From assembly GCA_964106645.2 (NCBI GenBank), contig OZ067041.1: a stretch of 64,000 nt of DNA; one strand, written 5' to 3'. Source of the DNA: Podarcis pityusensis (taxonomy: Eukaryota). Every line of letters begins with the position of its first letter. Positions within the stretch are counted from its first letter, which is position 1. Shown here piece after piece: positions 1 to 56,778 of the stretch. Below the pieces are notes generated by a model, which worked only from the letters and a program-made list of their open reading frames with translations, was not told the origin of the DNA and made no database searches. Position numbers and translations under genes: made by a program.

Positions 1-779
1 TGGCAAAAGACAGCGTGAGAAGGTGTGCTTGCCTTGCCTCTCCTGCAGGCGACACAATCTGCCTACCAAGGAAACTGTCATCTTCTAGGGTAGGGCAGTG
101 AGTGTTGGCACTAACAGTGCCAGGCGAAGTAGCTCATTGCCACCATTATCGTCATGAATGGATGAAGAACTGTCTACACCTGGTAAAATTACTTTTTTCC
201 AAACAACCCTCCTAAGAATCAGGAGGTGGTTAATATTTGCATCGGTTCAAATTGTATTTCCAAAGGTGTAATAAAAGCAAAAGCAAAATAACCCACTCAA
301 CCAACTCCCCACCACCACCTACCATATTCAATAGTGCTCTGCTTTATTAATACCTTGAGTAGTAGACTGGATAATCTCCATTTATTTTAATTTGGACTTT
401 TTCTGTCAAAAGGTGTTGATTTTGATTGCAGGTCTTAAATACTAGGGTGCTCATTTTGTGTGAGCCTACATGGTTTTATGTATTGTAATTCACAGAAATT
501 ACGATCCATAATATTGTGTAGTATTGGGAAATGCGGAGGTATAATGAACAGTATTATTTTCTTTCATCATAGCATCACTGCATCATAACCTTAAATGGAT
601 AAGTGGGGTCATATTTACCCCACCACTGGTCCATTTTTCTATGTCACCATGGCAACCACTTCCGCACTATTGTATATGATAGAATCTAACACAGAGTTGC
701 CACATTTGGTACTGAAGTACCACATTTTGTACACTTTTGATTACTAAAGTACGGAAATATTACTACTAGTCTTTACCAC

Positions 780-1760
780 TTCTTCTACTACTAAATGAAC
801 GTGCAAGTCTTTTTGCAGCTCACTTGCCTGGCATTGAATTAGTACTGGAAAATCTCCTAGAGCTAAATTTGACGGCCAAAACAAGCAACGAAGTCCACAG
901 AGTTTTCATTATGCTTGACATCTTTTGCCAGTGTGTTAATGTCATCTGTGTGGTACAAAATATTAGCTGGCATAGATATTTGCAACAAGGCCATCCAAGC
1001 TAGAAAGGCAACACTGGATGTTGAAGTAGCCACTGTAGAAGCTCTCCTCACAGAGCTGACAAAACTTCAAAGCAACAGGAAACACGTGTGGAATGAAGCC
1101 GAATTGGTGGCACCAAACAACCTAAATATAGTAATAAAACTCTCCTGTAAATGTGCATGAAGGCAAGGCTGCAGGATGACAACACTTGATGCTAACTTGG
1201 AAGAAATAAAATGATACAGGTGGTCTTCCAGAAGGAGTCTACTTTAGAAAATGTATTTCATTACATTTGCTGTTGAGCAGTTAGCAGGAAAAAAAGTTGA
1301 TTTCTTGTGGAAATATATCACCACGTCCGAAAGGGATGTGGAGAGAAAAGCTTTTGCTTTATTAGAGCAATATCCTGCTGACCTTAATGCTGATGATTTT
1401 GGAAAAGAAATGCGACATTTATCCTCAATACATAAATCTTGTAAATTCACAGTTAAAGCCATTAGATCTGTTGAACTTGTTAGCAGAGTACAAACTTGGA
1501 GGCCTGTTCCAAAATGTTTGTGTTTCGCTTAAGAATGCTATTAACCATGTCAGCAACAGCGGCTTCTGGAGAGAGGTCATTTAACAAACTTAAGCTAATT
1601 AAGAATTATTTAAGCTCTACAATGCCTCAGGAATGTCTTGTGGATTTGGCCAGGCTAAATATTGAATCAAACATTGCCAGAACAATTAATTTTCATGCTG
1701 TGATTTGAAAATTTCCACTTAAAAAAGGGCCAGAAAAGCTCTTTTTTAAAAAAGTAAATA
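780..1760 (+). mobile_element. Decayed hAT transposase remnant with C-terminal dimerisation domain
   Basis: Frameshifted ORFs 915-1708. LRMLLTMSATAASGERSFNKLKLIKNYLSSTMPQECL matches the hAT dimerisation motif (ERSFS-LK-IK-YLR-TM). Boundaries are approximate. Confidence 0.8.
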
Positions 1761-10899: not shown

Positions 10900-11750
10900 C
10901 CGACACACACACACCGCTTTTTGCAATACAGCCGAGCCCCTCAATTTAACGCCTTCCACCAGCAAGTAGGGAAGTCCCGTTTCCCTTATGCTCATGCACT
11001 GTCGCGGCTACTTTGCAGAAAAGTTACCAAGTTTCCTACCTGCTCTTTCTTGGTGTGCGCAGACTGCGGGGACATGGCCTCTTCGAAACGAGGAAGGAAG
11101 AGGAGAAAAAAAAACCAAAGTGGGGAAACCACGAGATTAATAATAATAATATTAAAAATATCCAAGGGCAGCCTTCAAGCTCTCCCTAAGGGAGCGCGTC
11201 CGGTCAGATCCATCCCGAGGGACGCTTTCCCACGCTGGTCCTATGAAGGCAGCTCCGAGTCCTTTTCTGCGACGGGAGTCTTTTTTAAACAGGAACGCTT
11301 CACTTCGCTTCTCTGGAAACCCACAGCCTTGCTGGCGCCCGTTTCCCGGAACAGTGGCGATTCTGACCGGCTTCCCTCTTTAGCTCTGGTCACTGGGCGC
11401 AGGGGTTGGGTCCGCGCGCTGTTTCAGTACCAGCAGCGTTGGACAGCTCCAAGCGGGAGGCAGGGAACCGACGCGTTGCGCGTGCGTTTTGCTTTAGTGT
11501 GGCGGCGGCAGCGGCGGCGGGCGCAACAGCCTCGTCAGTCTGCGCTCTCCTTCCTGCCACCAAGCGCGCCTTCCTCCTTCTCTCCCTTTGCGCCTTAATC
11601 TGCCCCAATAGGGCAGCACGCCGGCCAACGAGCCCGCCCAGACCTTCAGGGCTCATTGAGTCCGAGGGCGCCTTCCTCCTTCAGACAGCAAAACTCCATC
11701 TCTCCGCAAGCTTTTGGAGGGCGGAGAGGAAGCTTTCGGTGATATTTGGG
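10900..11750 (-). promoter_or_regulatory. CpG island; probable promoter and non-coding exon 1 of the next minus-strand gene (likely CNGA3)
   Basis: Densest CpG stretch in the window, with GGC repeats and TAATCT + CCAAT near 11595-11610. Minus-strand donor CAG|GTAGGA at 11040/11039. Gene identity is inferred only from the recalled VWA3B-CNGA3 order in amniotes. Confidence 0.55.
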
Positions 11751-12210
11751 TAAGGGGGGAATTCACAGCGTCTGTTTTCAACCAATGGCTTCATTAAACC
11801 AGCTTCTGAATTTTTGCCCCCGCAAAAAAAAATCTACCTAGTCTGTTCCCACCACCAGTTTACTGCTGGCCGCTCTGAAGAATATGGAGAAGCAAAACTT
11901 TGTTTTGCCACTGAAAATACTCTCAACAGGGAGTTGCAAGGACTCCTGGTTCCCTATCATGATGCTAGCTTTGCAAACTTGTTTTGTTCGGGGCTTTTTG
12001 CTTGCACAGTGTTCATGCATTTTTAGGGGTACACTTTAAAACTGCTGCTCCCGACCTGGTGACCTCCAGCTGTTTCCCATTCCAATTCCCACCAGACCCA
12101 GCCCAGCCAGCAAGGCCAATGCCCAAAATGATGGGAGTTGTGTTCCAAAATATCCAGAGGGCACGAGGTTAGGAAAGGGATCTTTAGAACATCTTAGTGC
12201 GCACCTGAGG

Positions 12211-12563
12211 GACCCGGGTGGCGCTGTGGGTTAAACCACAGAGCCTAGGACTTGCCGATCAGAAGGTCGGCGGTTCGAATCCCCGCGACGGGGTGAGCTC
12301 CCGTTGCTCAGTCCCAGCTCCTGCCCACCTAGCAGTCTGAAAGCGCATCAAAGTGCAAGTAGATAAATAGGTACCGCTCCGGCGGGAAGGTAAACGGCGT
12401 TTCTGTGCACTGCTCTGGTTCGCCAGAAGTGGCTTAGTCATGCTGGCCACATGACCCGGAAGCTGTACGCCGGCTCCCTCGGCCAGTAAAGCAAGATGAG
12501 CACCGCAACCCCAGAGTCGGCCACGACTGGACTTAAGGGCCAGGGGTCCTTTTACCTTTACCT
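12211..12563 (+). mobile_element. Sauria SINE (Squam1-type), near full length
   Basis: GGTGGCGCTGTGGGTTAAA head, GGTTCGAATCCC B-box and (ACCTTT)n tail. 17-bp TSD TTAGTGC(G/T)CACCTGAGG. Confidence 0.92.
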
Positions 12564-14300: not shown

Positions 14301-14653
14301 TGGGGTGTGGGTGGCGCTGTGGGTTAAACCACAGAGCCTAGGGCTTGCTGATCGGAAGGTCGGCAGTTCGAATCCCCGCAACAGGGTGAACTCCTGTTGC
14401 TCGGTCCCTGCTCCTGCCAACCTAGCAGTTCTAAAGCATGTCAAAGTGCAAGTAGATAAATAGGTACCACTCCGGTGGGAAGATAAACGGCATTTCTGTG
14501 CACTGCTCTGGTTCGCCAGAAGCGGCTTAGTCATGCTGGCCACATGACCTGGAAGCTGTACGCCGGCTTCCTCAGCCAATAAAGCGAGATGAGTGCCACA
14601 ACCCTAGAGTTGGCCACGACTGGACCTAATGGTCAAGGGTCCCTTTACCTTTT
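14301..14653 (+). mobile_element. Sauria SINE
   Basis: Same body as the 12211 copy. Flanking AAAGGGTATA duplication. Confidence 0.9.
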
Positions 14654-15306: not shown

Positions 15307-15760
15307 TCTCACATGTTCTGGAAGATCCAAGTACAGATTCTTCTGGCTTCACTGTTGACGCATTGGACAAACATTAACATTTATGGTAACACTCACCTGC
15401 TTAGATGTTGGTGAGTTCCAAGTCCCATCAGTTCCGGCCAGCATGGCCAATGCGCAGGGAATATGGGAGTTGTAGTCCTCCAAAATCTGCTGATCAGAGA
15501 TACTCCATCCCTGTCTTAGATGTATCTAAGACGTGAACCCTCAACAGCATAACAGAAAGACTGATTCTGTCATTGCCCTCACCTTCGGTTAGAGTTGCTT
15601 CAATTCAACATGTATACAGTTCAGTATTTAGCCCCTAGCTCTTTCTTAGCCTGCAATCAATCACTTACTTAGGAAATGCACATTGGGGAATCATGTATGG
15701 TTGTGGCTTCCTGCAGCGTGTTTCTGCTGTGTACTTTGTGCAAAAATACCTCCCACGGAA

Positions 15761-16170
15761 AATCATAGAATTGTAGAATTGGAAGGGACCCCGAGTGTAA
15801 TCTAGTCCAACCCTCTGCAATGCAGGAATCTCAACTAAAGCATCCAAGACAGATGGCCACCCAACCTCTGCTTAAAAACCTCCAAGGAAGGAGAGTCCAC
15901 AACCTCCCGAAGGAGTCCATTCCACCGTCAAACAGCTCTTACTGTCAGAAAGTTCTTCTTGATGTTTAGCTGGAATCTCCTTTCTTGTAACTTGAAGCCA
16001 TTGGTTCGTGTCCTACCCTCCACAGCAGGAGAAACAAGCTCGCCCCCCTCTTCCATGTGACAGCCCTTGAGATATTTGAAGATGGCTATCATATCTCCTC
16101 TCAGTCTTCTCTTTTCCAGGCTGAACATACCCTGCTCCTTCAACCGCTCCTCATAAGGCTTGGTTTCCAG
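15761..16170 (-). mobile_element. CR1 LINE 3' fragment (ORF2 C-terminus and 3' UTR)
   Basis: FSLEKRRLRGDMIAIFKYLKGCH...RTRTNGFKLQERRFQLNIKKNFLTVRAV plus an ATTCTATGATT tail. Confidence 0.92.
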
Positions 16171-16203
16171 ACACCATCTACAACCACCTCACATATCATA
16201 GAG

Positions 16204-16652
16204 TCATGGAACTTTGAAGTGTCAGGCATAGCCCTATTGGCTTTAGCCCAAACGTAGCAGAGTTTTCCTGCACAGCGAGGAAGCTAGTTGCGGCGGTAAT
16301 GACTAGTCAGCTAGACTCAGAATAACTATTTACAGGATTTATTAAAAGGAAAAATAAAACCAGCAGAGTTTCTGCATACAAATCAAAGCAAAATAAATCC
16401 TTTCTTTCTCTCTCTCTCTCATAACCATACACAGCACTTCTAACTCCTTCTCCTAACACACCTAACACCAAACTGTGCTAGCATTCCCAGATAACAGAGT
16501 TGAGTGCTGGTCGTTAACCAATCAGAGTAAGTAGTTTCTAGGTCAAGCAGACCTTGGCTTTCTGCCAAGAGTAAATTGACACTGCCTTGAGTTAATTGTG
16601 TGAAGCCAGAATCTGCAAGTTCCCATGAGAATCAATTAACAGAAACTGAACA
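16204..16652 (-). repeat. 3' LTR of the copia element
   Basis: Direct repeat of 20927-21375. Minus-strand AATAAA at 16338-16343. Confidence 0.96.
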
Positions 16653-16659
16653 CCCCCTC
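16653..16659 (-). other. Polypurine tract of the copia element
   Basis: Minus strand GAGGGGG directly before the TGTTCAG start of the 3' LTR. Confidence 0.75.
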
Positions 16660-16706
16660 ACAGATTCTGCTGGACAATTAACATCAAATAACACCTATGT
16701 AGGAGA

Positions 16707-19700
16707 TTATTTTTCCAGCAAACCTAAACCCTTGCACATTTGCTTGTTCTTTATCTTTGCCAATGGTTTAGTTAATACATCTGCTACATTTTCTTCACTT
16801 GATACATAAGTACATATGATTATATTGTCTTGTACACAGCAACGTACATTTTGGTATTTTACAGAGATATGTTTGGAACGTGATTTGAAACCCTCTGTTT
16901 TACTTAAGGCTATACAAGCTTGATTATCAATGTAAACTTGTACTGGTTCTCCACAATTTACATTTAAATCTGCTAGCAAATGCTTGAAATAAATCACCTC
17001 GTTGCACAATTCACTCAATGCGGCGTACTCTGATTCCGTTGATGACACACTTACAACGTCTTGCTTGCGTGACCGCCAGCTGATTAAAGCTCCACCAACC
17101 ATTATGACTAGTCCTGTGACAGATTTTCTATCTGGCAAATTTCCCCAGTCACTATCACAGTAGCAACTCAACATTTCGTCCTCGGAAGAATTTAATTGTA
17201 ACAAATAGCCAATTGTCTGTTTGAGGTATCTCAGAACTTGTTTTACCCCTTTCCAGGCATTTAGTGTGGGTTTTGAGACCAATCTACTTAATATGCCTAC
17301 TGCGTAGCTAATATCAGGTCTGGACCACTGTGCTAGATATAATAAACTTCCAATTACAGAGTGATATACATCAGGATGTTCAAATTCAGGACTCTCATCT
17401 ATATGAAGTGTTTTTATGAAACCTGGATCCATAGGCACCGCTGCCCCTTTGCAATCCTGCATCCTGTATGTAGTCAGTAGCTGTTTAACTTTGTTCTGCT
17501 GACTAATTAGGCAGCTGCCATCTTGGGCCCAGCACACTTCCAACCCTAGATATGTCCTAACCGGGCCTAAGTCCTTCACTTTGAACTTACTGGACAATTG
17601 CTTGGCAAACCTTTTAGTTTGTTTATCTGTTTTGCAGGCATACAATACATCATCTACATAAATCAGACAAAACTCTTGATCACTGCCTGTACCACGTACA
17701 TAAACACAATTGTCAGCTGTACTCTGCTTAAAACCAAATGACACTAAGGCCTCATGGAAACATTTGTTCCAAGATCTTGCAGCCTGTTTGAGACCATATA
17801 GAGCTTTGTTTAATTTCAACACTCTATTGGAACCTGTCTCATAACCAGGCGGTTCGGCTAGATACAGGTCTTCTGATATTGATGCATGTAAATATGCAGT
17901 CTGGATATCAAAATGGTTTAACAGGAGTTTTCTCTTTGCTCCAAGTGTTAGAATCAGCCTTACACTGTCCCCCTTAGCAGTAGGGGAAAAAGTTTCGTCA
18001 TAATCTTTTCCAGGCCTCTGAGAATATCCTTGAGCCACTAAACGAGCTTTGTATTTGTACTTTCCTGTCACCAGAGGTTTAAGTTTGTACACCCACCTGC
18101 AGCCTACAATCTTTGCCCCCTCAGGCGCTGCTACTGGTGTAAAAACCTTGTGCTCATTCAGAGAGGACATCTCTTCCTCCATTGCCTGTTTCCAGAGCTC
18201 TGCCTCCTCTTTTGGTAACTTTAACACCTCCTGAAAACTCTTGGGCTCTGCAATTACACTAAACACATTTGCAGTATCTGGAGAAAAACGCACCGGAGGC
18301 ACTCCTTTGTTTTGTCTTTTAGATCTTCTGGGAGAAAATTTTTCTTCTGACCCACTTTCCTCCTCAGAACTACGACCTCTCTTTTGCTGCTTAGCAACTG
18401 GTCTCTGGCTAACTCCACTTTCTTGAGAGCTCTTATCTGAACTTTCCTCCCCCTCAGACTTTGATTCTCTGTGTCTACCTTCAGAGTCATGGAGCTCCTG
18501 GGAAGGTTCAAACCAAACCTCAGTATTGGCATGTAGTCTCTCCCAGCCACTATGTTCACAAAAACTGGCATTCCTGGAGATCACAATGCCATTTGTCCCT
18601 TCAGCAAAGCGGAAACCTTTTCCCAGCTCCTGGTAACCCACAAACACTAACTGTTTGGTCTTAGGATCTCCCTTCTTTCTCATTTGTTTCGGAATTAATA
18701 CCCAGGCTTTTGATCCAAACACATGCAAATGGTCAATTTTAGGTTTTTTCTGAAACAATTTAAAGTACGGGGTTGTACCTATTGTTTGATGAAAGAGCCT
18801 ATTTTGGAGATAACACGCGGTGAGCATACTCTCCCCCCAATAAGACATGGGCAAATCAGCATCATCAAGCATGGCAAACATCATATCTTGTAAAGATCTG
18901 TTTTTTCGCTCTGCAACGCCATTCTCCTCTGGGGAAAAAACGTTTGTTTTTCTATGCCCAATGCCACGCTTTTGTAACCAATCTCTAAAGGCATTTGACA
19001 TAAATTCGCCACCTCTGTCCGTCTGAATCCTTCTGAGTTTAATGGACAGAAATCTTTCCACAGATGCCACCCAGCCTTTAAACTTAGTGAACACGTCACC
19101 CTTATTTTTCATGGGAAAAACCCAAGAGTAACGTGTGGCGTCATCCACAATTGTTAGTGAAAAACGCGCTCCACCCCTGCTTACAGCAAATGGACCAATT
19201 ACGTCCATGTGAACCAGCTGTAGCGGTGACTCACTAACTCTGTCACTTCTGGGGTAAGAGACTCTGTGGGTTTTAACCTTTTTACAAACATTACAATCAA
19301 GGTACTTGTTACAACTCTTTAAATTACCCCCATCAGCCAATTCAGACATTTTTAGTACACTTTTCCAGCAAGCATGCCCCATTTTCCTATGCAATAAGTG
19401 CACACAGTTGTCATGTATAGCTTTGTTATTCACTGCAGGCTGAGATTTACTGACTACTGCTGCAACTTGAGATCCTGCTTTAAGCCAAAACAAGCCTCCC
19501 TCTGACTTAGCAGTGCCTAAAATCTCACCAGCCTTCTTAATAATGCAACTGTCTCCTTCAAAATACACTTTAAACCCAGCTTTTAGCAAACAATCTACAG
19601 ACATCAGATTGCTCCTTAATGAAGGCACACAAAGTACATTTTGCAGGCATTCACGAAGACAAGGAACAAAAACTGCACCCCCCGAAATCACTTCGGAAGT

Positions 19701-20669
19701 ACTTCCGTCTGCTAGAGCCACCTGGCTGCGCTGTGCTGAGTTCTTGGAAACAAACAATTCATCTGAATTTACGATGTGCCGAGACGCTCCAGAATCGACC
19801 ACCCAGACAGCTTGTTTCTCATCAGCAATCTTGACCTCGGCGGTCACCAGCTGAGCCGACTGTTTTTGTTTGAAGAATTTCTTTTTACGCTGCTGCTGCT
19901 GCTGATCTCGTCTCTGCTCCTGCACCGGCAACTGAGACTTGACCAACTCCGGACATTGTCGTTTTAGATGCGCTGAAGACCCACATCGGAAACAACGCCT
20001 AACAGCAAACGCTGACTCCTCACCAGTACGCTGCTTTTGCTTCACCTCTGGCACGGCATGAGAACTCCTTCCAAACCGTCCACCTGTAGAAGCCTCTGCA
20101 GCCAACGACCTTTCTTGCCTCTTCTGCCATTCTTCAATCAAACGCCCAGTAACGTAACTGACTGATAAATCACGCTCCTGTATGCCTTCTAGAGACAAAA
20201 CTAAATTATCCCAGCTTTCCGGGAGAGAACTCAAAATAATAGCCACCTTCTCCTGCTGGTCTAACGCACAGTCTCTTTCCTGTAGCGCAGCGAACTTTAA
20301 CTGTAAACTGTGTAGGTGTTCCTGCATTGTAACCCCAGGCTGTAACATTGCCTTGTACAATGCCTTGCGAATGAACAGCTTGGAAACCGTTGTCTCACGC
20401 ACATGGAGTTCTTTAAGTGCTTGCCACACACCTCTAGCTGTCTTGATTCCCCTCACATACGGCAACTGGGAATCTTCCAGCCCCAAGACAATTGTGGCCC
20501 TTGCTCTTTGGTCTTTATCGAGGTCTTCATCATCAGGCTTCGCAGGAAACTTACTCACCACTTGCCAGAGACGATCCCTCTGCAGCACTGCCTGCATGCG
20601 TTCCGACCACAGCAAGTAATTGGAGTCATTCAGACGCTCAAAAACCATCTGAACTGGTTGTGAGGCCAT
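16707..20669 (-). CDS. Ty1/copia Gag-Pol polyprotein, 1320 aa
   Basis: Gag N-terminus FERLNDSNYLLW; zinc knuckle CFRCGSSAHLKRQC; protease WVVDSGASRH; integrase HHCC and DDE (LVHMDVIGP, TDRGGEF, NGVAERKN); RT (YKARLVAQG, LYGLKQAARSW, YVDD); RNase H (CDSDW, ESEY, IDNQ, ADVLTK). No stops or frameshifts. Confidence 0.97.
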   Translation of the reverse strand: MASQPVQMVFERLNDSNYLLWSERMQAVLQRDRLWQVVSKFPAKPDDEDLDKDQRARATIVLGLEDSQLPYVRGIKTARGVWQALKELHVRETTVSKLFIRKALYKAMLQPGVTMQEHLHSLQLKFAALQERDCALDQQEKVAIILSSLPESWDNLVLSLEGIQERDLSVSYVTGRLIEEWQKRQERSLAAEASTGGRFGRSSHAVPEVKQKQRTGEESAFAVRRCFRCGSSAHLKRQCPELVKSQLPVQEQRRDQQQQQRKKKFFKQKQSAQLVTAEVKIADEKQAVWVVDSGASRHIVNSDELFVSKNSAQRSQVALADGSTSEVISGGAVFVPCLRECLQNVLCVPSLRSNLMSVDCLLKAGFKVYFEGDSCIIKKAGEILGTAKSEGGLFWLKAGSQVAAVVSKSQPAVNNKAIHDNCVHLLHRKMGHACWKSVLKMSELADGGNLKSCNKYLDCNVCKKVKTHRVSYPRSDRVSESPLQLVHMDVIGPFAVSRGGARFSLTIVDDATRYSWVFPMKNKGDVFTKFKGWVASVERFLSIKLRRIQTDRGGEFMSNAFRDWLQKRGIGHRKTNVFSPEENGVAERKNRSLQDMMFAMLDDADLPMSYWGESMLTACYLQNRLFHQTIGTTPYFKLFQKKPKIDHLHVFGSKAWVLIPKQMRKKGDPKTKQLVFVGYQELGKGFRFAEGTNGIVISRNASFCEHSGWERLHANTEVWFEPSQELHDSEGRHRESKSEGEESSDKSSQESGVSQRPVAKQQKRGRSSEEESGSEEKFSPRRSKRQNKGVPPVRFSPDTANVFSVIAEPKSFQEVLKLPKEEAELWKQAMEEEMSSLNEHKVFTPVAAPEGAKIVGCRWVYKLKPLVTGKYKYKARLVAQGYSQRPGKDYDETFSPTAKGDSVRLILTLGAKRKLLLNHFDIQTAYLHASISEDLYLAEPPGYETGSNRVLKLNKALYGLKQAARSWNKCFHEALVSFGFKQSTADNCVYVRGTGSDQEFCLIYVDDVLYACKTDKQTKRFAKQLSSKFKVKDLGPVRTYLGLEVCWAQDGSCLISQQNKVKQLLTTYRMQDCKGAAVPMDPGFIKTLHIDESPEFEHPDVYHSVIGSLLYLAQWSRPDISYAVGILSRLVSKPTLNAWKGVKQVLRYLKQTIGYLLQLNSSEDEMLSCYCDSDWGNLPDRKSVTGLVIMVGGALISWRSRKQDVVSVSSTESEYAALSELCNEVIYFKHLLADLNVNCGEPVQVYIDNQACIALSKTEGFKSRSKHISVKYQNVRCCVQDNIIICTYVSSEENVADVLTKPLAKIKNKQMCKGLGLLEK

Positions 20670-20902
20670 CTTGAGAGCGATGTCCCTGGAACCCGGAACC
20701 AGCTACTCACGACCACCGAGAGAGAAAACAGGAACCACAGCACCCAGCACTCACACGCTGCAGCTGTTGTCCTTGTGTCCACTGCGTCACCAGCTCACCA
20801 CAGTCAGGAACCAGCCAGTGTCCATCTGCTGCACCAACAGGAACAACAACTTCTGGAACTACTGGAACCAACACCGTTGATGCTGACACCACCACAACTC
20901 AG

Positions 20903-20926
20903 GCTGGCAGCACAATGCCCATAACC
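20903..20926 (-). other. Primer binding site complementary to the anticodon region of initiator tRNA-Met (half-tRNA type)
   Basis: Minus strand GGTTATGGGC directly after the 5' LTR, then a 9-nt insert, then CCAGC. Drosophila copia has GGTTATGGGCCCAG. Confidence 0.8.
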
Positions 20927-21375
20927 TCATGGAACTTTGAAGTGTCAGGCATAGCCCTATTGGCTTTAGCCCAAACGTAGCAGAGTTTTCCTGCACAGCG
21001 AGGAAGCTAGTTGCGGCGGTAATGACTAGTCAGCTAGACTCAGAATAACTATTTACAGGATTTATTAAAAGGAAAAATAAAACCAGCAGAGTTTCTGCAT
21101 ACAAATCAAAGCAAAATAAATCCTTTCTTTCTCTCTCTCTCTCATAACCATACACAGCACTTCTAACTCCTTCTCCTAACACACCTAACACCAAACTGTG
21201 CTAGCATTCCCAGATAACAGAGTTGAGTGCTGGTCGTTAACCAATCAGAGTAAGTAGTTTCTAGGTCAAGCAGACCTTGGCTTTCTGCCAAGAGTAAATT
21301 GACACTGCCTTGAGTTAATTGTGTGAAGCCAGAATCTGCAAGTTCCCATGAGAATCAATTAACAGAAACTGAACA
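20927..21375 (-). repeat. 5' LTR of the copia element
   Basis: Matches 16204-16652 and is followed by the PBS. Confidence 0.96.
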
Positions 21376-23027
21376 TAGAGTAGAATTGTGCCCATGTTTA
21401 AATAAATAAATACGTCAAATCTTTCCCTTCTACTGCCAGGTGCAAAGCATTCTTCAGAGTTGTCTGCTCCATACTTTCAGTATAGGTTGCAGAAGGAAAT
21501 ATATATGAGATCCACCAGTACTTTGAACAGTATATTATGAAGAAATTGCAGTGATACTGAGGAAGCAGAAATCAAGGGGAAAGTAGCCTTAAGCTCAGCG
21601 ATGTTTAGCTAGACCTTAGCCAGACACTCTGTGCCTGATTCATTGACCCCGCTCCAATCTGTGATGGTCACCACTTGAAAATCAAATCTGGAAGGGCTAT
21701 TTCTGTTTCCAATAGATGATTCATGCCTTTATATTCAAACTCATTCTAATTAATGCTCAAGACTGAATAAAATTACCATAGCATATGAGTGTCTGAAAAA
21801 TGATATTATATAGTTTGATAGCCAATTTAACATTTGCTCCATATTATAAATTGATGCGGCATTCTGGCATCTGACAAACCACCACTACCAGGTTTTTAAA
21901 ACAATTTCTGAAAAATTGAATTAAACAGTATTCCTTTTATTAAAAAAATGCAAAAGCAGGCCACTTTTCCTACTGAAGTGTCTAGAAAAAAGGACTCTCC
22001 TGATTGCAATACTATCTTCTCCACTAATGCAGAGAATATTTGAAATGTTTTAAAATTAGCTATCATTTCTTTATTGCACTCCTGGTTCTGAACTCAAGAG
22101 CTCCAAGACTCAGTTTCTCTAAGTCTCAGTTAGTTTTAGAAAATGCCTCTTCCAATCCTTTCCCCAGCCCAGTCCATTAGACTAATGAAACAGAAATGAT
22201 CTTGTATCTGTTTTCTTAGGTAAATCAAAGCCATAATTGGTGATAATTCCTTATCCCCTAAATTGATTGTTTTGCTTTTTAATTACATAAAATGTATATA
22301 CCTCTTGGTTGTAGAAAGGCAAAACAAAACTTCTCAACATGGCTTGGGTAGATTTTCTGGTTGGCTGACTGGAATTTTTATCACATAGCCATCAATCCTG
22401 AATGCCTTTACTAGGGAGTAAGCCCCACAGAACAGAATGGGACTTGATTTTCAGTAAACATATATTGGATTGCACAGCAAACTGTGTACTTGGACCATCT
22501 AAATTAAATTTGATTGGATTTACCAAGTTACACTTGGGACTACGTAAATCTGCCCTCTGTTTGTCAATACTACTAGAACCTTGAAAGATAATATCCGTGT
22601 AACAATCAATAAAACTCAATGATTCGATTCCTTCTGAAGCCGTGAAGGGCATCCCTGTCCGAGTCAAAATAGACCGTAACAGTTTTAACTGTATTAAGTG
22701 AGAAATTCAATTTACCATTAGAAGGAGCTATAAGGCACTTTCTTGACTGCGTAGATCAAGGAAGTTGGTCATAGCTAGAGATGAGAAAAGGGCAAATGAT
22801 CACAAGCTGAATAAATGATTCCTTCTGTCTCTGGATTTTTTTGAATAACTTTTGTATCAAGCTGCTATTACAGTAAGAATGCCCTGGATACCATGAGTAT
22901 CCAAAGTAAGGGTGCTTCTTGATGGCACACATAAACACAACCCACAACCCCCACAGTCTTGGTTAATCCTTGTCCACCTAGGGATGGTGGATAAATTAAA
23001 TTCAGTTCAATTTTAAAGGTGAACTTA

Positions 23028-26801: not shown

Positions 26802-26897
26802 TTTGTTGTTGTTGTTTAGTCGTTTAGTCGTGTCCGACTCTTCGTGACCCCATGGACCAGAGCACGCCAGGCACTCCTGTCTTCCACTGCCTCCCAC
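26802..26897 (-). mobile_element. Bov-B LINE extreme 3' fragment
   Basis: GGGGTCACGAAGAGTCGGACACGACTAAACGACTAAACAACAAC tail on the minus strand. 11-bp TSD TTGTTGTGCTT. Confidence 0.88.
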
Positions 26898-27352: not shown

Positions 27353-27791
27353 TACTGGTTTTCCCAGTAGGGATGTATGGAAGTGAGAGCTGGACCATAA
27401 ACAAGGCTGATCACTGAAGAATTGATGCTTTTGAATTATGGTGCTGGAGGAGACTCTTGAGAGTCCCATGGACTGCAAGAAGATCAAACCTATCCATTCT
27501 GAAGGAAATCAGCCCTGAGTGCTCACTGGAAGGACAGATCCTGAAGCTGAGGCTCCAGTACTTTGGCCACCTCATGAGAAAAGAAGACTCCCTGGAAAAG
27601 ACCCTGATGTTGGGAAAGATGGAGGGCACAAGGAGAAGGGGACGACAGAGGACGAGATGGTTGGACAGTGTTCTTGAAGCTACCAGCATGAGTTTGACCA
27701 AACTGCGGGAGGCAGTGGAAGACAGGAGTGCCTGGCATGCTCTGGTCCATGGGGTCACGAAGAGTCGGACACAACTAAACGACTAAACAAC
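27353..27791 (+). mobile_element. 5'-truncated Bov-B (RTE) LINE
   Basis: RVPWTARRSNLSILKEISPECSLEGQILKLRLQYFGHLMR...VHGVTKSRTQLND. 11-bp TSD AAGGTAAAGGC. Confidence 0.93.
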
Positions 27792-30774
27792 AAGGTAAAG
27801 GCACATATAGTGGGAAAAGTAGGAGAGCCTCAGGGGCATGAGGGGTTCATAACTTTTACCCTCCCCCTTGACCAAGTGAGTGACATTTATTCTTATAACT
27901 CAGCAAACTGTCTTCCCTTTGGCATAGCCGGTGTTTAGGATTGCTTTGCCCAAGTGCATGCAATTACTTCCTCAAAGACATTTGCCACAGCAGTAACATG
28001 CAGGACAAAGAACTGCAATTGGCCACGGAAGGAGCACACCATGAGAAGCTCTGCATGACATTAAGGAAAGTTAATTGAGAGGCACACTTTGCACTTAGTT
28101 CTCGCTCTGGGAAGAAATGAAAAGCTATAATTGCTGAACTCCTCAAGCCCTTTGTGAAGGACTATAGAATCAGGCATCAGGTGGCTTCCAAATAAGACCG
28201 GCTGGGACAAACAGAAAGTATCATGAAAAGATTAAAACAAAATGTAATAGCAAACATGGTTTGTGTGGACAGAAAGAGAAATGACTCCTAATTAAATGAA
28301 TCATTTCTTTGGAAATGTCACAACACAGAAAAAACTATTCACAGTCCTCCAGAAATTAAGCCTATTGACATGAATAGCAGCAGTTGCACAATAACACAAC
28401 TCTCCCATTCATTTCAACAATGAGAGAAATATCTCAATGGCTCATCCCTTCCTCCCTGTGAACTCCATGGGACTTGCTTCAGAGTGATGGCATGTGGATT
28501 AGCCTCTCACCTGTGTCTTTGAGTAGTTCACTTAAGGATGCAGTGGAGAGTCAATATGCCTCTCATGCAGAACAGCATCTGACATTTCAGCCAATTTTTT
28601 TTTATTTATTTTTTTGCCTGCACTGTGCAGGCAAAATGTAACCAGACATTATTCAATCAAGGTGTGCGAATGAACAAGAGAATTTATTTTCAGATTATAA
28701 AAATGGTAAACCATGCGAATTTGTAGACTTCTAATAAGGGGTGTTGTAGAACCCACCTCAAAGGGGCCAGAAACTAAGGGCAGAGTAGAGCAGAGTGAGG
28801 GGATTAAATTCAGTTTGCATTTAAAGGCAAACCTACCAAAATCACACATTGATTTTGGAACCCTACATGAATGCAAGCACAGTCATCCTGTGAAATTTAA
28901 CTAGGCAGGCCATTTGTCTAATACAGGAGGACTTTTCTTCATTTTAAACTGAATCTCTCCAAAATTCTAACCAATTTTGACAACCCAGTCAATAATAAAA
29001 TTATAGAAGATCTAACAGATGTGGCAACCCAGTCCTAATCTTTTAGGATGGGTTGCACCACCACTGAGGTCAGAGGTGGGGAATCTATGGTCCTCCAGAT
29101 GCTGTTGGACTACAATTCCCATCAGCCCTAGTCAGCATGGTCAATGATCAGGGATGATGGGAGTTGGAGTCCAAAAATATAGAGAGGGCCACCCCATTAT
29201 ATATATGCTACATAGCAATACAGCTGAGGAGCCCCACTGAAGCCAATAGGCCAACCCAATTAGCTGGGCCAAACCTGCACAGATTCAAAGTCCAGTGCTT
29301 CTCTTTAGCACTGCCACATTTTAGACAATGCAATGGCAGTTTGGAGACTTCCTTTGTCTCTTCCAACTTTGGGCGTCAATTTTATCCCTGTTTTCCTCAC
29401 TTTTATTCAGGCAGTGCATGCTCTGCTTAAGCCTCTCCCTACCTCCCTCCCTCTCCTGTTTTAAGATTAGCAGCCTGCCATGAGATTGCCATTAATCTGT
29501 CTGATGCTTTTTGGAATGTCAAATGAGAGGTGGCAGTACAGCTTCCACTAAAGACAGAGAGAGACTTCACAGCCTCTAGCGCTGTCTGTATTTTACACAG
29601 ACAATTACCATCTATGGGAAACAGGCCTTTTGACAGTCAAAAAATCTGAAACCTGCATAGCGAAGCTTGGAAGCAGTAGCTGTGATATTGAGAAGAGGGA
29701 AATCAGAGCACAAAACTTGACCCAGATTGTCTCATGGAGATCAGTTAATCCCTACTGTATTTCTTCACGGCACACAGAAAGGAGACCAGCAGCATCACTA
29801 AAACATTTCGAGATTAAAGTTAGTACTTACCTGTACATTATGATGAAACTGAGTTGTCCATGCCTGGTTTGGACAATACTCTTGAGTTCATGACGGACAC
29901 AAACATGACGTTTGTTAGGTCTCAGGTACTTAACAATTTTCCATTTCAAACTGGTCAAAGCTGCTCAGGATCTGGTTCAGTTTTCCCAGAGTGGAGCACA
30001 GTGTTACTCAGGGAGTGGCTGTCACCAAAAACCCTGTGTTGTGTTCTTCCCCAACATATGACAATGCATAACTTTGTGTCAAGGGCATAATATTTTTTCG
30101 GAGGTTGCGTGCCACCCCCAATCTCTGCTGAGAAGTAGCATGATTCCTGGGGGTTCCAGGCACTCACCCAGGGTTGTGTTTCCGTCAGGAAAATCAAGGA
30201 GCAGTCAAGGCTAGTGTCGTTAAGAAATAGGTTTTACTTTACACCTAAAGTCTACAATGGAGACGGTGCAGAACATTATACCCTAACGGTGTCTCTCATC
30301 ATCCCTGGCAGAGCTTTAGCAAGCTCACGTTCAAAGCTGCAGTCATGGCTCTCACTCTCTTGCTGCCGCCTCCTCCAGTTAGAGTCAAGATGGTTCTGCC
30401 TACTTCCTCCTTCTTGTTCCCAGAACACCTTTAACCTTTCAAAAGGGACACATTTTCCTGTGACACCACGTCCCCCTCAATTGCCTTGGCAACCTTCCAA
30501 ATCTCTTTTCTTTGTCCATTCCTTGGAGGGGGCGGGGAGGAAGGATAGCTTTTTTGTATTGCCAATGACCTTCATTTTGTATTGCCAATGGTTCCTCATT
30601 ATTTCTCAACAGCTCTGCACTCAAGCTAGCCCAGGCAGGCTGGTTTGCATATGCTAACGTAGGAATTTCTTCTCTGGCACAGTTCTGCCATTTGTATTTC
30701 CCCATCATATCCCAAATATTATCTAAATGCTGCCGTTTATTAATTTCATCAATAGATTCTGGTACCCCAGATGA

Positions 30775-31155
30775 CAGGGACGCGGGTGGCGCTGTGGTCT
30801 AAACTACTGAGCCTCTTGGGCTTGCCGATCGGAAGGTTTGTGGTTCAATACCCACAATGGGGTGAGCTCCTGTTGCTCTGTCCCAGCTCCTACCAACCTA
30901 GCAGTTCAAAAGCATGCCAATGCAAGTAGATAAATAGGTACTGCTGGGACGGGAAGGTAAACAGCGTTTCTGTGCACTCTGGTTTCCGTCACGGTGTCCC
31001 TTTGCACTAGAAGCGGTTTAGACATGCTGATCACATGACTCGGAAAGCTGTCTGTGGACAAATGCTGGCTCCTTCGGCCTGAAAGCAAGATGACCGCCGC
31101 AACCCCATAGTCGCCTTTGACTGGACTTAACCTTCCGGGGTCCTTTACCTTTACC
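30775..31155 (+). mobile_element. Sauria SINE
   Basis: Typical head and ACCTTT tail. 12-bp TSD TACCCCAGATGA. Confidence 0.9.
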
Positions 31156-36789: not shown

Positions 36790-37128
36790 CGTTAAAGGTA
36801 AAGGGACCCCTGACCATTAGGTCCAGTTGTGACCAACTCTGGGGTTGTGGCGCTCATCTCGCTTTATTGGCCGAGGGAGCTGGCGTACAGCTTCTTGGTC
36901 ATGTGGCCAACATGACTAAGCCGCTTCTGGTGAACCAGAGCAGCGCACGGAAACACCGTTTACCTTCCCGACGGAGCAGTACCTATTTATCTACTTGCAC
37001 TTTGACGTGCTTTCGAACTGCTAGGTTGGCAGGAGCAGGGACCGAGCAACGGGAGCTCACCCCGTGGTGGGGATTCGAACCACCAACCTTCTGATCAGCA
37101 AGTCCTAGGCTCTGTGGTTTAACCCACA
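36790..37128 (-). mobile_element. Sauria SINE
   Basis: Reverse-complement copy with 9-bp TSD GTTCCCAGG. Confidence 0.9.
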
Positions 37129-37189
37129 GTTCCCAGGTGTTATCTGATCTCAATTCTGCCCCTGTACCCATTTCCCATTCTTCACATAC

Positions 37190-40930: not shown

Positions 40931-41388
40931 TGTTATGTACTGAGTTGAATAGGATCCAAAAGGCAGCAGTCTGACTGGTCCTAGAACAATAGGATTCAGA
41001 ATGCAGCAGTCTGATTGGTCCTAGAACAATAGGATTCAGAATGCAGCAGTCTGATTGGTCCTAGAACAATAGGATTCAGAATGCAGCAGTCTGATTGGTC
41101 CTAGAACAATAGGATTCAGAATGCAGCAGTCTGATTGGTCCTAGAACAATAGGGTCCAGAATGCAGCAGTCTGATTGGTCCACAGGAGCCACCCAATCCA
41201 GCTCCAGGTGGAAGTGAATCCGCAACCTGATTGGCCTACAGGTGAATCCCGGAATTAGCCAATCACGTTGGGCCCATTGTGTAAATAATGTATATAAAGC
41301 AGACATTCTGGGGGAACTTCCATGCCTCCTCACCACTATGAGCTGAATAAAGAGCATGAAATCCACACTCGACTCCAAGTATATTTCA
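40931..41388 (+). mobile_element. Solo LTR with internal 40-bp tandem array
   Basis: TG...CA ends, 5-bp TSD ATAAG, TATATAAA at 41291, AATAAA at 41346. Confidence 0.9.
40951..41180 (+). repeat. 40-bp tandem repeat, ~5.75 copies
   Basis: Unit AGGATTCAGAATGCAGCAGTCTGATTGGTCCTAGAACAAT. Units 2-5 are identical. Confidence 0.95.
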
Positions 41389-42562: not shown

Positions 42563-42918
42563 GTTAAAACGATCTAATTTCTGACTTAATCATAGCACGT
42601 TCTTTTCCCTGTGTTTAGATCCACCCTCAGTCATGCGTTTAGAAAGTGCGGAAAGGGAACTTGAACGCGTACCAATGTATGCACACAGAGCTGCTTGAAA
42701 CAAGGATCCTTCCTCCTTTGCAATGGCTCTTATGCAGACACATTCTCAAACCCACTGAATGCACAGCCAACAGTGGATACGTAAGAGGGAAGAACTTCAG
42801 CATTCGGTACAAGTTTCCAAGTCTCACATACAGCATTTGTGTTAAGTCTGTAATAGTAGGTTGCCTGCATTGGGAGGGGGTTGGACTATGGGTAACTTTT
42901 AAGGTTGCTTCCAGTTCT

Positions 42919-43801
42919 TGTTAGTTTCTGTTTATGCCACTGTGCAGTGCTTGGAGTCACAAGACTCTGTTTTGCATTCCAGAGATTCCATGTACAACCA
43001 GGGTCTATTTGATTGGTCGTGCAAGAAGCAAACAACAGTAAGCTTAAGTTCTTGTGAAGCTGAACTGAATGCACTATCTTATTCACTTGTGGATTGTGAA
43101 TGGTTGTTACAATTGTGTAGAGACATGAGAATTCCTGTAAAGTGTCCAATCCAGGTTTATCAGGACAACAAAGCATGTTTGGCTTTGCTGACTTTTGAAG
43201 GGTGTAAGCAAAGCACAAAGCACTTGCAATTGAAGCTGCAACATGCTAGAGAATGTGTCCAGAAAGGACTCGTAACGGTGTCCTATATGCCAGGTAATGA
43301 AATTCCTGCTGATTTATTGTCCAAGGTTGTTCCAAGGGATCAACACTGTACCTATGTACAGAAACTGGGTTTGTACTGAGATTGTACTGACACACTGCCC
43401 AGTGGTGTTCACAGAAAGGGGGAGGATGTTAGTTTCTGTTTAAGCCACTGTGCAGTGCTTGGAGTCACAAGACTCTGTTTTGCATTCCAGAGATTCCAGG
43501 CTGTTGGAAGTCTCACGGAAGACAGGAGATGGATGTGATGTTACTGGTTTCCTGTTCCTTTGTTTTTTGGTTGCTCTCTGCTTTCACAGAGAAAGCATGT
43601 ATATTTCTTTTCTGTCTGCGTAGTTAGAAATGAAACCTAGCAATGTAGCTCAAACCTCTCATCTCTTCTGCTGTGTTTGATACTCTGATGAATGGAGAAC
43701 ATCTCTGCAGCCTTATCAAAGGTTCAGGTTGTTAATCATCGTCGGAGGAGATTCCGAAGGCTCGACTGGAGGAGTAGCTCTGTCGAACACAAGTTCCGAC
43801 A
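42919..43801 (+). mobile_element. Internally deleted Ty1/copia element (72-bp 5' LTR stub, RNase H, PPT, 375-bp 3' LTR)
   Basis: 42919-42990 matches 43427-43498 with one mismatch. PPT AGAAAGGGGGAGGA at 43413-43426, LTR ends CA at 43801, 5-bp TSD GTTCT. Confidence 0.9.
42990..43379 (+). pseudogene. Copia RNase H domain fragment (open frame, first catalytic Asp deleted)
   Basis: WSCKKQTTVSLSSCEAEL...VYQDNKAC...TKHL...YMPGNEIPADLLSK. Confidence 0.85.
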
Positions 43802-44146
43802 GTTCTATGGTAACAGGTGCCCCTGACAGTCCCATGTGCGTCCTTCCTTTCTTCCCCACTGCACACTGCCAAGATTTGAAAATTCTGCACACACACGTAA
43901 GCATATACCCCCACATAGGCACTAATGCCCATTCCTCAAAATATGTATAGATCCTAAACATTTGAACCAGCATTGCCAACTATGTAATATCTCTGCATTG
44001 CGAGCTAAATATTACATTTGGTAACTATCCTGGCTGATTAGTTATCACTTCCTGCTCCAAAGGACTCCCATCCACACGCCAGGTCTTGACACTGGTTTTA
44101 GGGTAGAATTCCAAGCCAAACAAACTACTATTTACAATGTAATTAC

Positions 44147-45748: not shown

Positions 45749-46183
45749 ACAGCATCTTAAAAAGCAGAGACATCACCTTGTTGACAAAGGTCCGTATAGT
45801 TAAAGCTATGGAAGTGAGAGCTGGACCATAAAGAAGGCTAATCGCGGAAGAATTGATGCTTTTGAATTATGGTGCTGGAGGAGACTCTTGAGAGTCCCAT
45901 GGACTGCAAGAAGATCAAACCGATCCATTCTTAAGGAAATCAGCCCTGAGTGCTCACTGGAAGGACAGATCCTGAAGCTGAGGCCCCAATACTTTGGCCA
46001 CCTCATGAGAAGAGAAGACTCTCTGGAAAACCCTGATGTTGGGAAGGATGGAGGGCACAAGGAGAAGGGGACGACAGCTACCAGCATGAGTTTGACCAAA
46101 CTGTGGGAGGCAGTGGAAGACAGGAGTGCCTGGTGTGCTCTGGCCCATGGGGTCAAGAAGAGTCGGACACGACTAAACAACAA
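45749..46183 (+). mobile_element. 5'-truncated Bov-B LINE with internal deletions
   Basis: Same peptide as the 27353 copy. 11-bp TSD AGATCTTTTAG. Confidence 0.92.
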
Positions 46184-47600
46184 AGATCTTTTAGCCATCT
46201 GTACAAACAACAGCAATGGTGCAACTCTACCCACAAGCTTAACAATACCAACTTTCCAGCTTTTTTTGATAGCTTACATTAATTCAGCATTAGGTCTGAA
46301 CAGATAGGCAACTGATAAGCTCAGCCATAAAAGGTTACTATTTCTCTTTCAGCATTAATAGGCCATCTCCTCAGTGCTTTTTAAAAAATCAGATTTGTCC
46401 AGATTTGTCCAAAGATTTAAATTCCAAGAAAACAGCATTGCATTCACTAATATACAAAGGAAATGTACCTTGCCAAACATCTTTTTCTAACATCAAGTCA
46501 TGTTGAGTATAGCTCCTGTTTAGGGTGTGTGCACAAAATAAGTTAAGTAAACATTTAGGCAAGACAAATAAAAAACGGGGGGAGGGGGGGACAAGCCATT
46601 GTTTGAAACATTTCATTTCTATCCTGAGCTCAACACCATTTCTGAATGACACCTGCATTTCTACCACTCAGTCCTGAAGCTTTGCAGCTGCAGATTAGCA
46701 ATTACTGAAGATGGGGCTCTGATTAGGCTGCTAATGCAGGTTGTCTCAGGATAAGTGATTGCACGGTGTTAATCACATCGCAGTCAGTAGCATATGTTGG
46801 CATGTCAGGACAGCAGGAGGGAAACACACCAGAAGGAACTGGTAAAGTGCAGAAATGTTTCTGCTCCTGCAGAGCGGAGGAATGAACTGGTGGGTTAGAG
46901 GAAGATTATCAACAGCTACCGTACTCACTTAATGGACGCTTCCTATTTTTATTAGGATATATCAAAGATTTTAGAGATTCAAGGGCACCGGATATTATCT
47001 TCAATCATTATTATTAAGCCAGCTCCCCCCCCCCAGCCCTTTTTACAAGCACCATTCACGGTGAGCCATACTAGCATGAAACAACTTTTCAGTGGCAGAG
47101 TTGAAATGCAGAATTAGAAAGGATCTCCTCTGCCTGTGGGGCAGGACACACACAGTCATTCCAAGGCATCATGTGGATATTTGTTATGCAGAGGCTGACA
47201 GGGAGGGGGGTGCCTGTGGGGAACTGACCCACATGTCAGAAGACTGGTAAGGCATGATGCACGCCAGAGAGGATCAAGGACAGAGGGGCTGTGAGGTGAC
47301 CAAGATGCTGCTGTGTAGCTGTGTCCTTACAGGGAGGAGACATCTTGCAGTCATGCTTTGTGAAATTTAGGTGGCTGTGTTGAGGGACCGAAACCCAAAA
47401 GGGAAGCCTCAGGGAAGTGACTGACTACAGAGCTGACTCTGGGTGGTCTCTACAGCTGTCTGATGTTTGTGATGGTCCCTAGTATCCCTCTAGGTCCTTT
47501 CCTCAGTCTGACACCTCTCCTTTATTAATTGTATACCATTTTTCCTTGAAGGACAGGGCTGTGCCCCAAAATGCCCTCTCTCAGCTCTTAAGAGCCAGTA

Positions 47601-55986: not shown

Positions 55987-56138
55987 GCCTGGATAGCTCA
56001 GCTGGTTAGAGCGTGGTGCTGATAACGCCAAGGCTGGAAGTTCGATCCCCATGCAGGACAGCTGCATATTCCTGCACTGCAGAAGGTTGGACTAGGTGAT
56101 TCTCAGGATTCCTTCCAACTCTACAACTCTATGATTCT
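55987..56138 (+). mobile_element. tRNA-Ile-derived SINE with CR1-type tail
   Basis: GCCTGGATAGCTCAGCTGGTTAGAGCGTGGTGCTGATAACGCCAAGG...GTTCGATCCCC followed by CTTCCAACTCTACAACTCTATGATTCT. Confidence 0.82.
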
Positions 56139-56558: not shown

Positions 56559-56778
56559 GAGAGAAGACTCCCTGGAAAAGACCCTGATGTTGGGAAGGAT
56601 GGAGGGCACAAGGAGAAGGGGACGACAGAGGACAAGATGGTTGGACAGTGTTCTCGAAGCCACCAACATGAGTTTGACCAAACTGCGGGAGGCAGTGGAA
56701 GACAGGAGTGCCTGGCGTGCTCTGGTCCATGGGGTCACGAAGAGTCAGACACGACTAAACGACTAAACAACAACAACA
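56559..56778 (+). mobile_element. Bov-B LINE 3' fragment
   Basis: GAAGACTCCCTGGAAAAGACCCTGATG...CACGACTAAACGACTAAACAACAACAAC. Confidence 0.9.

What the first reader, a model, noticed from the sequence alone, without database searches (positions are those of the whole stretch)
16199..21380. Intact, probably recently active Ty1/copia retrotransposon in a squamate genome
Seen: the two 449-bp LTRs show no differences by eye, the TAGAG TSD is perfect, and the 1320-aa Gag-PR-IN-RT-RH frame is uninterrupted with all catalytic motifs present. Known: LTRs are identical at insertion, and copia elements are scarce and poorly characterised in amniotes. Inference: this is a very recent, possibly polymorphic, transposition-competent insertion.
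Basis: partly seen in the sequence, partly recalled or inferred. Interest (0 to 1): 0.75.

Follow-up and report, generated by a model that had tools for sequence, protein, structure and literature searches.

The report
Young intact copia retrotransposon, wall lizard
This is a complete, recently inserted jumping gene of the copia type in a wall lizard genome; such elements are already known to be abundant and active in lizards and snakes, so it is mostly ordinary, apart from an unusual end sequence.

Summary
Observation confirmed. A 5,172-bp Ty1/copia element lies on the minus strand (16204-21375). Its 449-bp LTRs differ at 0 of 449 positions, the 5-bp TSD is perfect, and one unbroken 1320-aa Gag-PR-IN-RT-RH frame keeps all catalytic residues. 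The host is a Podarcis wall lizard (neighbouring VWA3B exons), and the insertion is about 11 kb past that gene's stop codon. The family is multi-copy: two P. lilfordi Gag pieces (98%) and two other full-length 1320-aa frames (99.4%, 98.6%) exist. The premise of scarcity fails: a 2025 survey found copia in 23 of 24 squamates and 1,004 sequences in P. muralis, and an active, polymorphic copia is documented in corn snakes. LTR identity only bounds the age (95% upper limit about 0.17-1.05 Myr); polymorphism and present activity are untested. The termini are non-canonical, TG...GA as in rice Tos17. The primer-binding site abuts the LTR and pairs with nucleotides 30-39 of initiator tRNA-Met, the half-tRNA priming of Drosophila copia and Ty5; the corn-snake element has neither feature. 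No close non-lizard relative was found, so horizontal transfer has no support. New member of a known kind.

The parts
16199..16203 (.). Target-site duplication, left copy (TAGAG)
16204..16652 (-). 3' LTR, 449 bp, begins TG and ends GA; one AATAAA at 16338-16343
16653..16659 (-). Short polypurine tract (7 purines) directly before the 3' LTR
   Evidence: role as plus-strand primer inferred from position
16707..20669 (-). Single Gag-PR-IN-RT-RH open frame, 1320 aa plus stop
16710..17162 (-). RNase H domain (D1172, E1214, D1248, D1297)
   Evidence: motifs, conservation; no Pfam hit for this part
17430..18149 (-). Reverse transcriptase, RVT_2 (D921; YVDD with D1006, D1007)
   Evidence: PF07727 E=5.6e-68
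18543..19391 (-). Integrase: HHCC zinc site, D489-D551-E587 core, SH3-like C-terminal domain
   Evidence: PF00665, PF25597
19572..19805 (-). Aspartic protease (DSG at 292)
   Evidence: PF22936
19953..19994 (-). Gag nucleocapsid zinc knuckle CX2CX4HX4C
20106..20597 (-). Gag capsid region; best solved relative is the 'Copia VLP protein' 8vvw
   Evidence: PF14223; PDB E=1.5e-17
20670..20916 (-). 5' leader, 247 bp; no unusual fold stability for the LTR end plus leader (z = -1.0)
20917..20926 (-). Primer-binding site, 10 nt, abutting the 5' LTR; pairs with nt 30-39 (anticodon arm) of initiator tRNA-Met
20927..21375 (-). 5' LTR, 449 bp, identical to the 3' LTR
21376..21380 (.). Target-site duplication, right copy (TAGAG)

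Best explanation
The element is a young, full-length, autonomous Ty1/copia retrotransposon of a multi-copy Podarcis family, most likely in the squamate (Mtanga-like) copia radiation, inserted between genes. Shown: every cis element and every catalytic residue of the copia cycle is present. Inferred from established copia biology: RNA polymerase II transcribes from the 5' LTR and ends near the AATAAA of the 3' LTR. The single polyprotein is cut by its protease, and Gag forms intracellular, non-infectious particles (there is no env and only 54 bp between the stop and the 3' LTR). Minus-strand synthesis is primed by a 5' half of initiator tRNA-Met paired to the 10-nt site, and plus-strand synthesis by the short purine tract. 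Integrase joins the cDNA with a 5-bp stagger. Both LTRs end in GA and the TSD is perfect, so the parent RNA already carried the GA end and integrase accepted it. The insertion is probably less than about 1 Myr old.
For: LTRs differ at 0 of 449 positions, with TSD, PBS and PPT in place. Domains and motifs are complete. The copy differs from both full-length siblings at 6 of 1320 residues. None of these lies in the 203 columns that are at least 90% conserved, and all 27 departures from such columns are shared with both siblings. All 7 members of the 90% cluster are 97.5-99.4% identical to the window protein, among them two unbroken 1320-aa frames and two P. lilfordi pieces on different contigs that are identical to each other over 262 aa. 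In the IN+RT tree the family groups with a Pantherophis copia and two unnamed proteins at 100/100 support (also SH-aLRT 100). The PBS pairs with nt 30-39 of 72-nt eukaryote-type tRNA-Met(CAT) genes; the chance of this 10-mer at this fixed position is 8e-7. Precedents: TG...GA in active Tos17, anticodon-arm priming in copia and Ty5, active squamate copia.
Against: There is no transcript, particle, cDNA or population evidence. If the 6 private amino-acid changes all arose after insertion, 1.8 LTR differences would be expected and zero still has P = 0.17 (assuming 76% of changes are non-synonymous), so the copy may be some hundred thousand years old. The PBS pairs over only 10 nt and the PPT is only 7 purines. 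No TATA box was found in the LTR. The tRNA genes used came from a scan whose pattern already held the motif, so one search shows where in tRNA-Met the motif lies, not an unbiased best match, and they are not lizard genes. The unnamed full-length siblings lie on 4.5-kb contigs without context and may be collapsed assemblies or this same locus in other animals. Both named P. lilfordi proteins leave the frame just after Gag. Mtanga membership was not tested against Mtanga itself.
Confidence: 0.85

Rival explanations
1. The copy is intact but silent and fixed: it inserted some hundred thousand years ago, is epigenetically repressed, and the family no longer moves.
For: The 95% upper age bound is 0.17-1.05 Myr, or about 285,000 generations (rates from PMC9995274). 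The copy has 6 private amino-acid changes. The named P. lilfordi copies are out of frame after Gag.
Against: Three unbroken 1320-aa frames are 98.6-99.4% alike. Two P. lilfordi loci are identical over 262 aa. A second young copia family lies in the same 64 kb. This rival differs from the best explanation only in present activity.
Confidence: 0.45
2. The LTR identity is secondary, made by assembly polishing or by gene conversion between the LTRs of an older insertion.
For: Not testable here: no reads are available. Conversion between LTRs is a known process (own knowledge).
Against: The TSD is perfect and the frame unbroken. The frame carries 6 residues found in neither full-length sibling, which argues against overwriting by family-majority reads. 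The frame is within 0.6% of a sibling, so the copy is young regardless of its LTRs.
Confidence: 0.07
3. The family entered wall lizards by recent horizontal transfer from an arthropod, fish or plant.
For: The clade sits in a starred 27-row group that also holds an Anopheles darlingi element. The metazoan survey leaves horizontal acquisition of Mtanga open as a deep event.
Against: Outside the Podarcis cluster the best RT-RH identity is 46% among 409 hits. Apart from the family's own 99% fragment, the best of 150 listed representatives is 42%. The nearest named relative in the tree is a snake element, 43% identical. Protein sets under-sample eukaryotic transposons, so absence is weak evidence.
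Confidence: 0.07
4. The GA end is a dead-end defect peculiar to this copy, and the family itself has canonical TG...CA ends.
For: The other copia family in the window has a similar LTR end but finishes in CA, and so does the corn-snake element (read by eye). No sibling DNA was available.
Against: Both LTRs carry GA and the junction has a clean TSD, so at least one round of replication and integration used this end. Tos17 is active with the same end.
Confidence: 0.25

Closest known systems
Squamate Mtanga-clade copia (PMC11889832; P. muralis 1,004 sequences, 44 clusters, 22 placed in Mtanga)
   Same: Same host genus, superfamily and single-frame layout. The survey calls Mtanga the only terrestrial copia clade in deuterostomes.
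   Different: Clade membership could not be tested because the reference FASTA is unreadable here. The passages and tables I saw do not describe termini or primer sites. This family may already be among the P. muralis clusters or in Repbase.
Corn-snake copia inserted in OCA2 (amelanistic) and CLCN2 (stripe) (PMC4657000, PMC11948899)
   Same: Squamate copia with a 5-bp TSD and near-identical copies; shown polymorphic, and proposed by the authors to be currently active (85 copies).
   Different: It is 5,832 bp long with LTRs of about 260 bp, TG...CA ends and a PBS for the 3' end of tRNA-Met after a 3-nt spacer (read by eye from the supplement). The window element is 5,172 bp with 449-bp LTRs, TG...GA ends and a half-tRNA PBS, so it is a different family.
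Drosophila copia and yeast Ty5 (anticodon-arm priming)
   Same: Priming at the anticodon arm of initiator tRNA-Met; Gag similar to the solved 'Copia VLP protein'; one long frame.
   Different: Distant in sequence. Copia makes Gag from a spliced RNA (recalled); no such RNA is shown here. The pairing here is only 10 nt.
Rice Tos17
   Same: Autonomous LTR element with 5'-TG...GA-3' termini that can be activated.
   Different: Plant element, 4.3 kb with 138-bp LTRs; Tos17 itself was not in my trees, where the plant rows fall far from this family. The shared end is most likely convergent (inference).
Pantherophis guttatus LOC117676053 (P0100)
   Same: Nearest named protein in the tree. It shares a short motif after the integrase SH3-like domain that, among the proteins held, otherwise occurs only in the Podarcis family.
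   Different: 43% identical; a partial frame with an unrelated tail.

Membership tests
Ty1/copia LTR retrotransposon | Direct LTRs flanked by a 5-bp TSD | tested here: met
Ty1/copia LTR retrotransposon | Domain order PR-IN-RT-RH (integrase before RT) | tested here: met
Ty1/copia LTR retrotransposon | Copia-type RT (RVT_2) and Gag (Retrotran_gag_2) | tested here: met
   PDB Copia VLP protein
Ty1/copia LTR retrotransposon | PBS after the 5' LTR and PPT before the 3' LTR | tested here: met
Ty1/copia LTR retrotransposon | TG...CA termini (usual, not defining) | tested here: not met
   TG...GA; known exception in Tos17
Half-tRNA-primed copia (copia/Ty5 type; Hemivirus by recalled ICTV usage) | PBS complementary to the anticodon arm of initiator tRNA-Met rather than to its 3' CCA end | tested here: met
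   10 nt pair with tRNA nt 30-39; the tRNAs are not from the host and were found with a pattern holding the motif
Half-tRNA-primed copia (copia/Ty5 type; Hemivirus by recalled ICTV usage) | A tRNA fragment is really used as primer | not testable with these tools
   needs cDNA-end or small-RNA data
Mtanga clade | RT/RNase H groups with Anopheles gambiae Mtanga and the published squamate references | not testable with these tools
   reference FASTA not readable; indirect support only: grouping with a snake copia and Mtanga as the sole clade listed for squamates
Corn-snake OCA2/CLCN2 copia family | Same LTR, termini and PBS | tested here: not met
   (by eye)
Active (transposing) element | Intact frame and cis elements | tested here: met
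Active (transposing) element | Near-identical copies at other loci | tested here: met
   (protein level; two P. lilfordi contigs)
Active (transposing) element | Insertion polymorphism, transcription or de novo insertion | not testable with these tools
   no vertebrate genomes or reads can be searched here

The most novel reading that the evidence does not exclude
A currently transposing, autonomous Podarcis copia family whose members all end in TG...GA and use half-tRNA priming. It would be a vertebrate counterpart of Tos17 that annotation pipelines demanding TG...CA miss, and a source of segregating insertions in wall lizards, this one lying about 4 kb from a CpG island. I found no description of such termini or priming for lizard copia in four searches, but these cover open-access text only, and Repbase was not searchable.
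Probability: 0.3. Interest if true: 0.45.

Novelty: new member of a known kind. Interest (0 to 1): 0.25.

Why it matters
Its importance is modest. Squamates are already known as the main vertebrate reservoir of copia, and an active one has produced colour morphs in corn snakes. This copy adds a well-defined candidate source element for Podarcis, a model genus for colour and island evolution, and a ready insertion marker. If the GA end is family-wide, it shows that a vertebrate copia integrase works without the canonical CA end, and that motif-filtered counts of intact lizard LTR elements are too low. The different primer sites of the lizard and corn-snake elements suggest that squamate copia use at least two priming modes.

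Tried and rejected
A scan of bacterial and archaeal genome contigs for contaminating copia relatives with DNA context found 21 pattern matches and 0 relatives. A paper search for the PBS motif gave 444 papers, and none of the 40 listed was about this primer site. The readable supplements of the plant survey name the half-tRNA-Met class but do not give the motif. Two peptides of the element were not found in the readable supplements of the metazoan survey; three image PDFs, a slide file and the reference FASTA could not be read. Folding the LTR end plus leader gave z = -1.0, so no special structure. Candidate splice sites for a Gag-only RNA (2 donors, 3 acceptors) are mere consensus matches and support nothing. 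No coding exon was recognised between 1 and 32,500 outside transposon remnants, so an intronic position was rejected for VWA3B; an intron of a non-coding or unrecognised transcript is not excluded. The idea of a copia scarce in this host was rejected. Identity with the corn-snake family was rejected. No structure prediction or complex job was run, as neither would decide activity.
Full report
OBSERVATION. The element spans 16204-21375 on the minus strand. The two LTRs are 449 bp and differ at 0 of 449 positions, and TAGAG flanks both ends. One frame of 1320 codons runs from 20669 to 16707. Pfam finds copia Gag, the protease-like barrel, integrase core and SH3-like domain, and RVT_2, in the copia order; the best solved relative is the 'Copia VLP protein'. 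The zinc knuckle, protease DSG, HHCC, D,D(35)E, RT and RNase H carboxylates are present. All 15 such residues scored against 30 distant homologues match the conserved residue. The element is the only copy of its family in the window.

First, both LTRs begin with TG but end with GA. The last base could instead be counted into a 6-bp TSD, but neither reading gives CA. The 5-bp reading fits the usual copia TSD and the register of the similar LTR end of the second copia in the window. Both LTRs share the end and the junction is clean, so the parent RNA carried it and integrase used it (inference). Rice Tos17 is an activatable element with the same TG...GA ends (bioRxiv 10.1101/137141, passages). 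Second, the 10 bases directly after the 5' LTR do not match a tRNA 3' end. They are complementary to the anticodon arm of tRNA-Met(CAT): a scan with a 17-base pattern holding the motif gave 72 loci, ARAGORN called 44 tRNA genes in them, all tRNA-Met(CAT), and in the 72-nt eukaryote-type initiator genes the pairing covers nt 30-39. The pairing is built into that scan, so it locates the motif rather than ranking primers. The chance of this 10-mer at this fixed place is 8e-7, and it occurs once in the window. Priming at the anticodon arm is known for Drosophila copia and Ty5 (PMC10886601, passages) and for a few plant lineages (PMC6317226, passages and one supplement table).

HOST AND SITE. An exon at 38954-39091 matches DUF4537 and is 100% identical to Podarcis lilfordi VWA3B. 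Fourteen exons map from 63397 down to the stop at 32516, on the minus strand. Over the 13 exons shared by all five lacertid proteins compared, identities out of 569 aa are 561 (P. lilfordi), 561 (P. raffonei), 560 (P. muralis), 540 (Lacerta agilis) and 533 (Zootoca). The host is therefore Podarcis; the species is not resolved. The element lies 11,141 bp past the VWA3B stop and about 4.2 kb from a CpG island at 11.0-12.0 kb. Its left neighbour is a repeat at about 15760-16170, whose translation I recognise from memory as the end of a CR1 LINE.

FAMILY. The exact protein is not in the 15-billion collection, but a 99% identical fragment is. Its cluster has 7 members: two named P. lilfordi proteins on contigs of 53.9 and 41.3 Mb, and five unnamed ones. 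All 7 are 97.5-99.4% identical to the window protein. P0291 and P0292 are unbroken 1320-aa frames with 8 and 19 differences, and the two P. lilfordi pieces are identical to each other over 262 aa. Both named pieces leave the frame just after the Gag knuckle, through decay or assembly error. The window copy has 6 private residues, none in the 203 strongly conserved columns. So this is a young multi-copy family, and the locus is unlikely to be a polishing product. The caveat is that the unnamed frames have no genomic context.

AGE. Zero differences in 449 bp give a 95% upper bound of 1.05 Myr at 3.17e-9 per year, 0.17 Myr at 1.96e-8 per year (two gecko estimates), or 285,000 generations at the reptile mean (rates from PMC9995274, passages). 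If the 6 private residues all arose after insertion, zero LTR differences would still have P = 0.17. 'Young' is shown; 'very recent' and 'polymorphic' are not.

RELATIVES. Outside the Podarcis cluster the best RT-RH identity is 46% (unnamed P0002/P0122), and named insect, fish, plant, oomycete and fungal proteins reach 32-41%. I built a tree of integrase plus RT from 55 of 273 eligible proteins: the family, 12 named references and the top scorers. I rebuilt it carefully on 36 rows after dropping 19 rows: near-duplicates, two long branches and two rows left unplaced near the root. Both trees join the family with a Pantherophis guttatus copia and two unnamed proteins (100/100), inside a wider starred group that holds an Anopheles element. 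The snake protein is only 43% identical, which fits an old squamate lineage and gives no sign of recent horizontal transfer. The snake-lizard pairing itself is weak (91/52), the branches are long, and transposon proteins are thinly sampled.

WHAT IS KNOWN. PMC11889832 (abstract, passages, methods, supplement tables 1-3 by search and table 3 in full) reports copia in 23 of 24 squamates, holding 66% of 49,920 metazoan copies and listed only under the Mtanga clade. It gives 1,004 sequences in 44 clusters for P. muralis and 304 for Zootoca. Its reference FASTA and tree figures could not be read, and they may already hold this family. PMC4350176 (passages) states absence from birds and mammals only. 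PMC7116210 (passages) calls a Mtanga-like copia especially abundant in tuatara, and PMC4131045 (passages) finds Mtanga-like elements in frogs. PMC4657000 and PMC11948899 (passages; one supplement read in full) show two polymorphic insertions of one 5,832-bp copia in corn snakes, one base apart, with 85 copies in the genome. Read by eye, that element has TG...CA ends, LTRs of about 260 bp and a PBS for the tRNA 3' end, so it is a different family. PMC10214862 (passages) gives LTR content for Podarcis, 1.4-2.4%, with no family detail in the passages seen; PMC3118150 (passages) added nothing for lizards. A search for Podarcis with copia and transposable element returned one paper, on another lizard (listing only). 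The searches cover open-access text only, and bioRxiv supplements were closed.

MECHANISM. Shown: the parts. Inferred: LTR-driven transcription, polyprotein processing, intracellular particles, half-tRNA priming, purine-tract priming of the plus strand, and integration with a 5-bp duplication through a GA end. How excess Gag is made is open; a shorter spliced or early-terminated RNA, as in other single-frame copia (recalled), is the likeliest route, and the splice-site candidates found are only consensus matches. My odds are about 0.85 that this is a young autonomous member of a squamate copia family, and about even that the family still moves today.

VERDICT. The element is real, clean and young, but it is a new member of a known and abundant kind, with a published active precedent in the same order. 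The non-canonical end and the primer type are worth recording. Interest 0.25.

Noticed in passing
window 42914-43806 (+): A second, different copia with an internal deletion: the first 72 bp of the 5' LTR (42919-42990) joined to an open RNase H end (36% identical to the main element), a purine tract and a full 375-bp 3' LTR (43427-43801). It has TG...CA ends and a GTTCT TSD, and the shared 72 bp differ at 1 position. It lies antisense in a VWA3B intron.
   Followed up: partly
window 32516-63397 (-): The 3' half of VWA3B, 14 exons mapped, 98.6% identical to Podarcis proteins.
   Followed up: yes
window 11001-12000: CpG island about 4.2 kb beyond the element's 3' LTR. It may be the promoter of the next gene (CNGA3 follows VWA3B in human, recalled); no exon was recognised.
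   Followed up: no
proteins P0288, P0289 (P. lilfordi): Both annotated relatives stop shortly after the Gag zinc knuckle, in different off-frames, within an A-rich stretch. This could be decay or a homopolymer error; a route to Gag-only product is a speculative third reading.
   Followed up: partly
window 15760-16170 (-): Repeat fragment directly left of the insertion, recognised from memory as a CR1 LINE 3' end; related pieces at about 12830, 15165, 32110, 44750, 49590 and 56070.
   Followed up: partly
window 12216-12560, 14309-14652, 30780-31150, 36793-37129: Four copies of a repeat of about 340 bp, 82-90% alike, recognised from memory as Sauria SINE.
   Followed up: no
window 27376-27793, 45807-46184, 56562-56780, 26802-26897: Young 3' fragments, 93-99% alike, recognised from memory as RTE/BovB LINE.
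   Followed up: no
window about 760-1740 (+): Decayed hAT transposase remnant; weak Dimer_Tnp_hAT hit just under the curated cut-off, E = 4e-4.
   Followed up: partly
window 40948-41181: 40-bp minisatellite, 5.8 copies, 96% matches, in a VWA3B intron.
   Followed up: no
window 55987-56059 (+): Weak tRNA call (Ile, GAT anticodon; 33.9 bits) overlapping a repeat; probably a tRNA-derived remnant.
   Followed up: no
L006, L014, L026, L051: Eukaryote-type initiator tRNA-Met genes inside bacterial MAG contigs, probably contamination.
   Followed up: no
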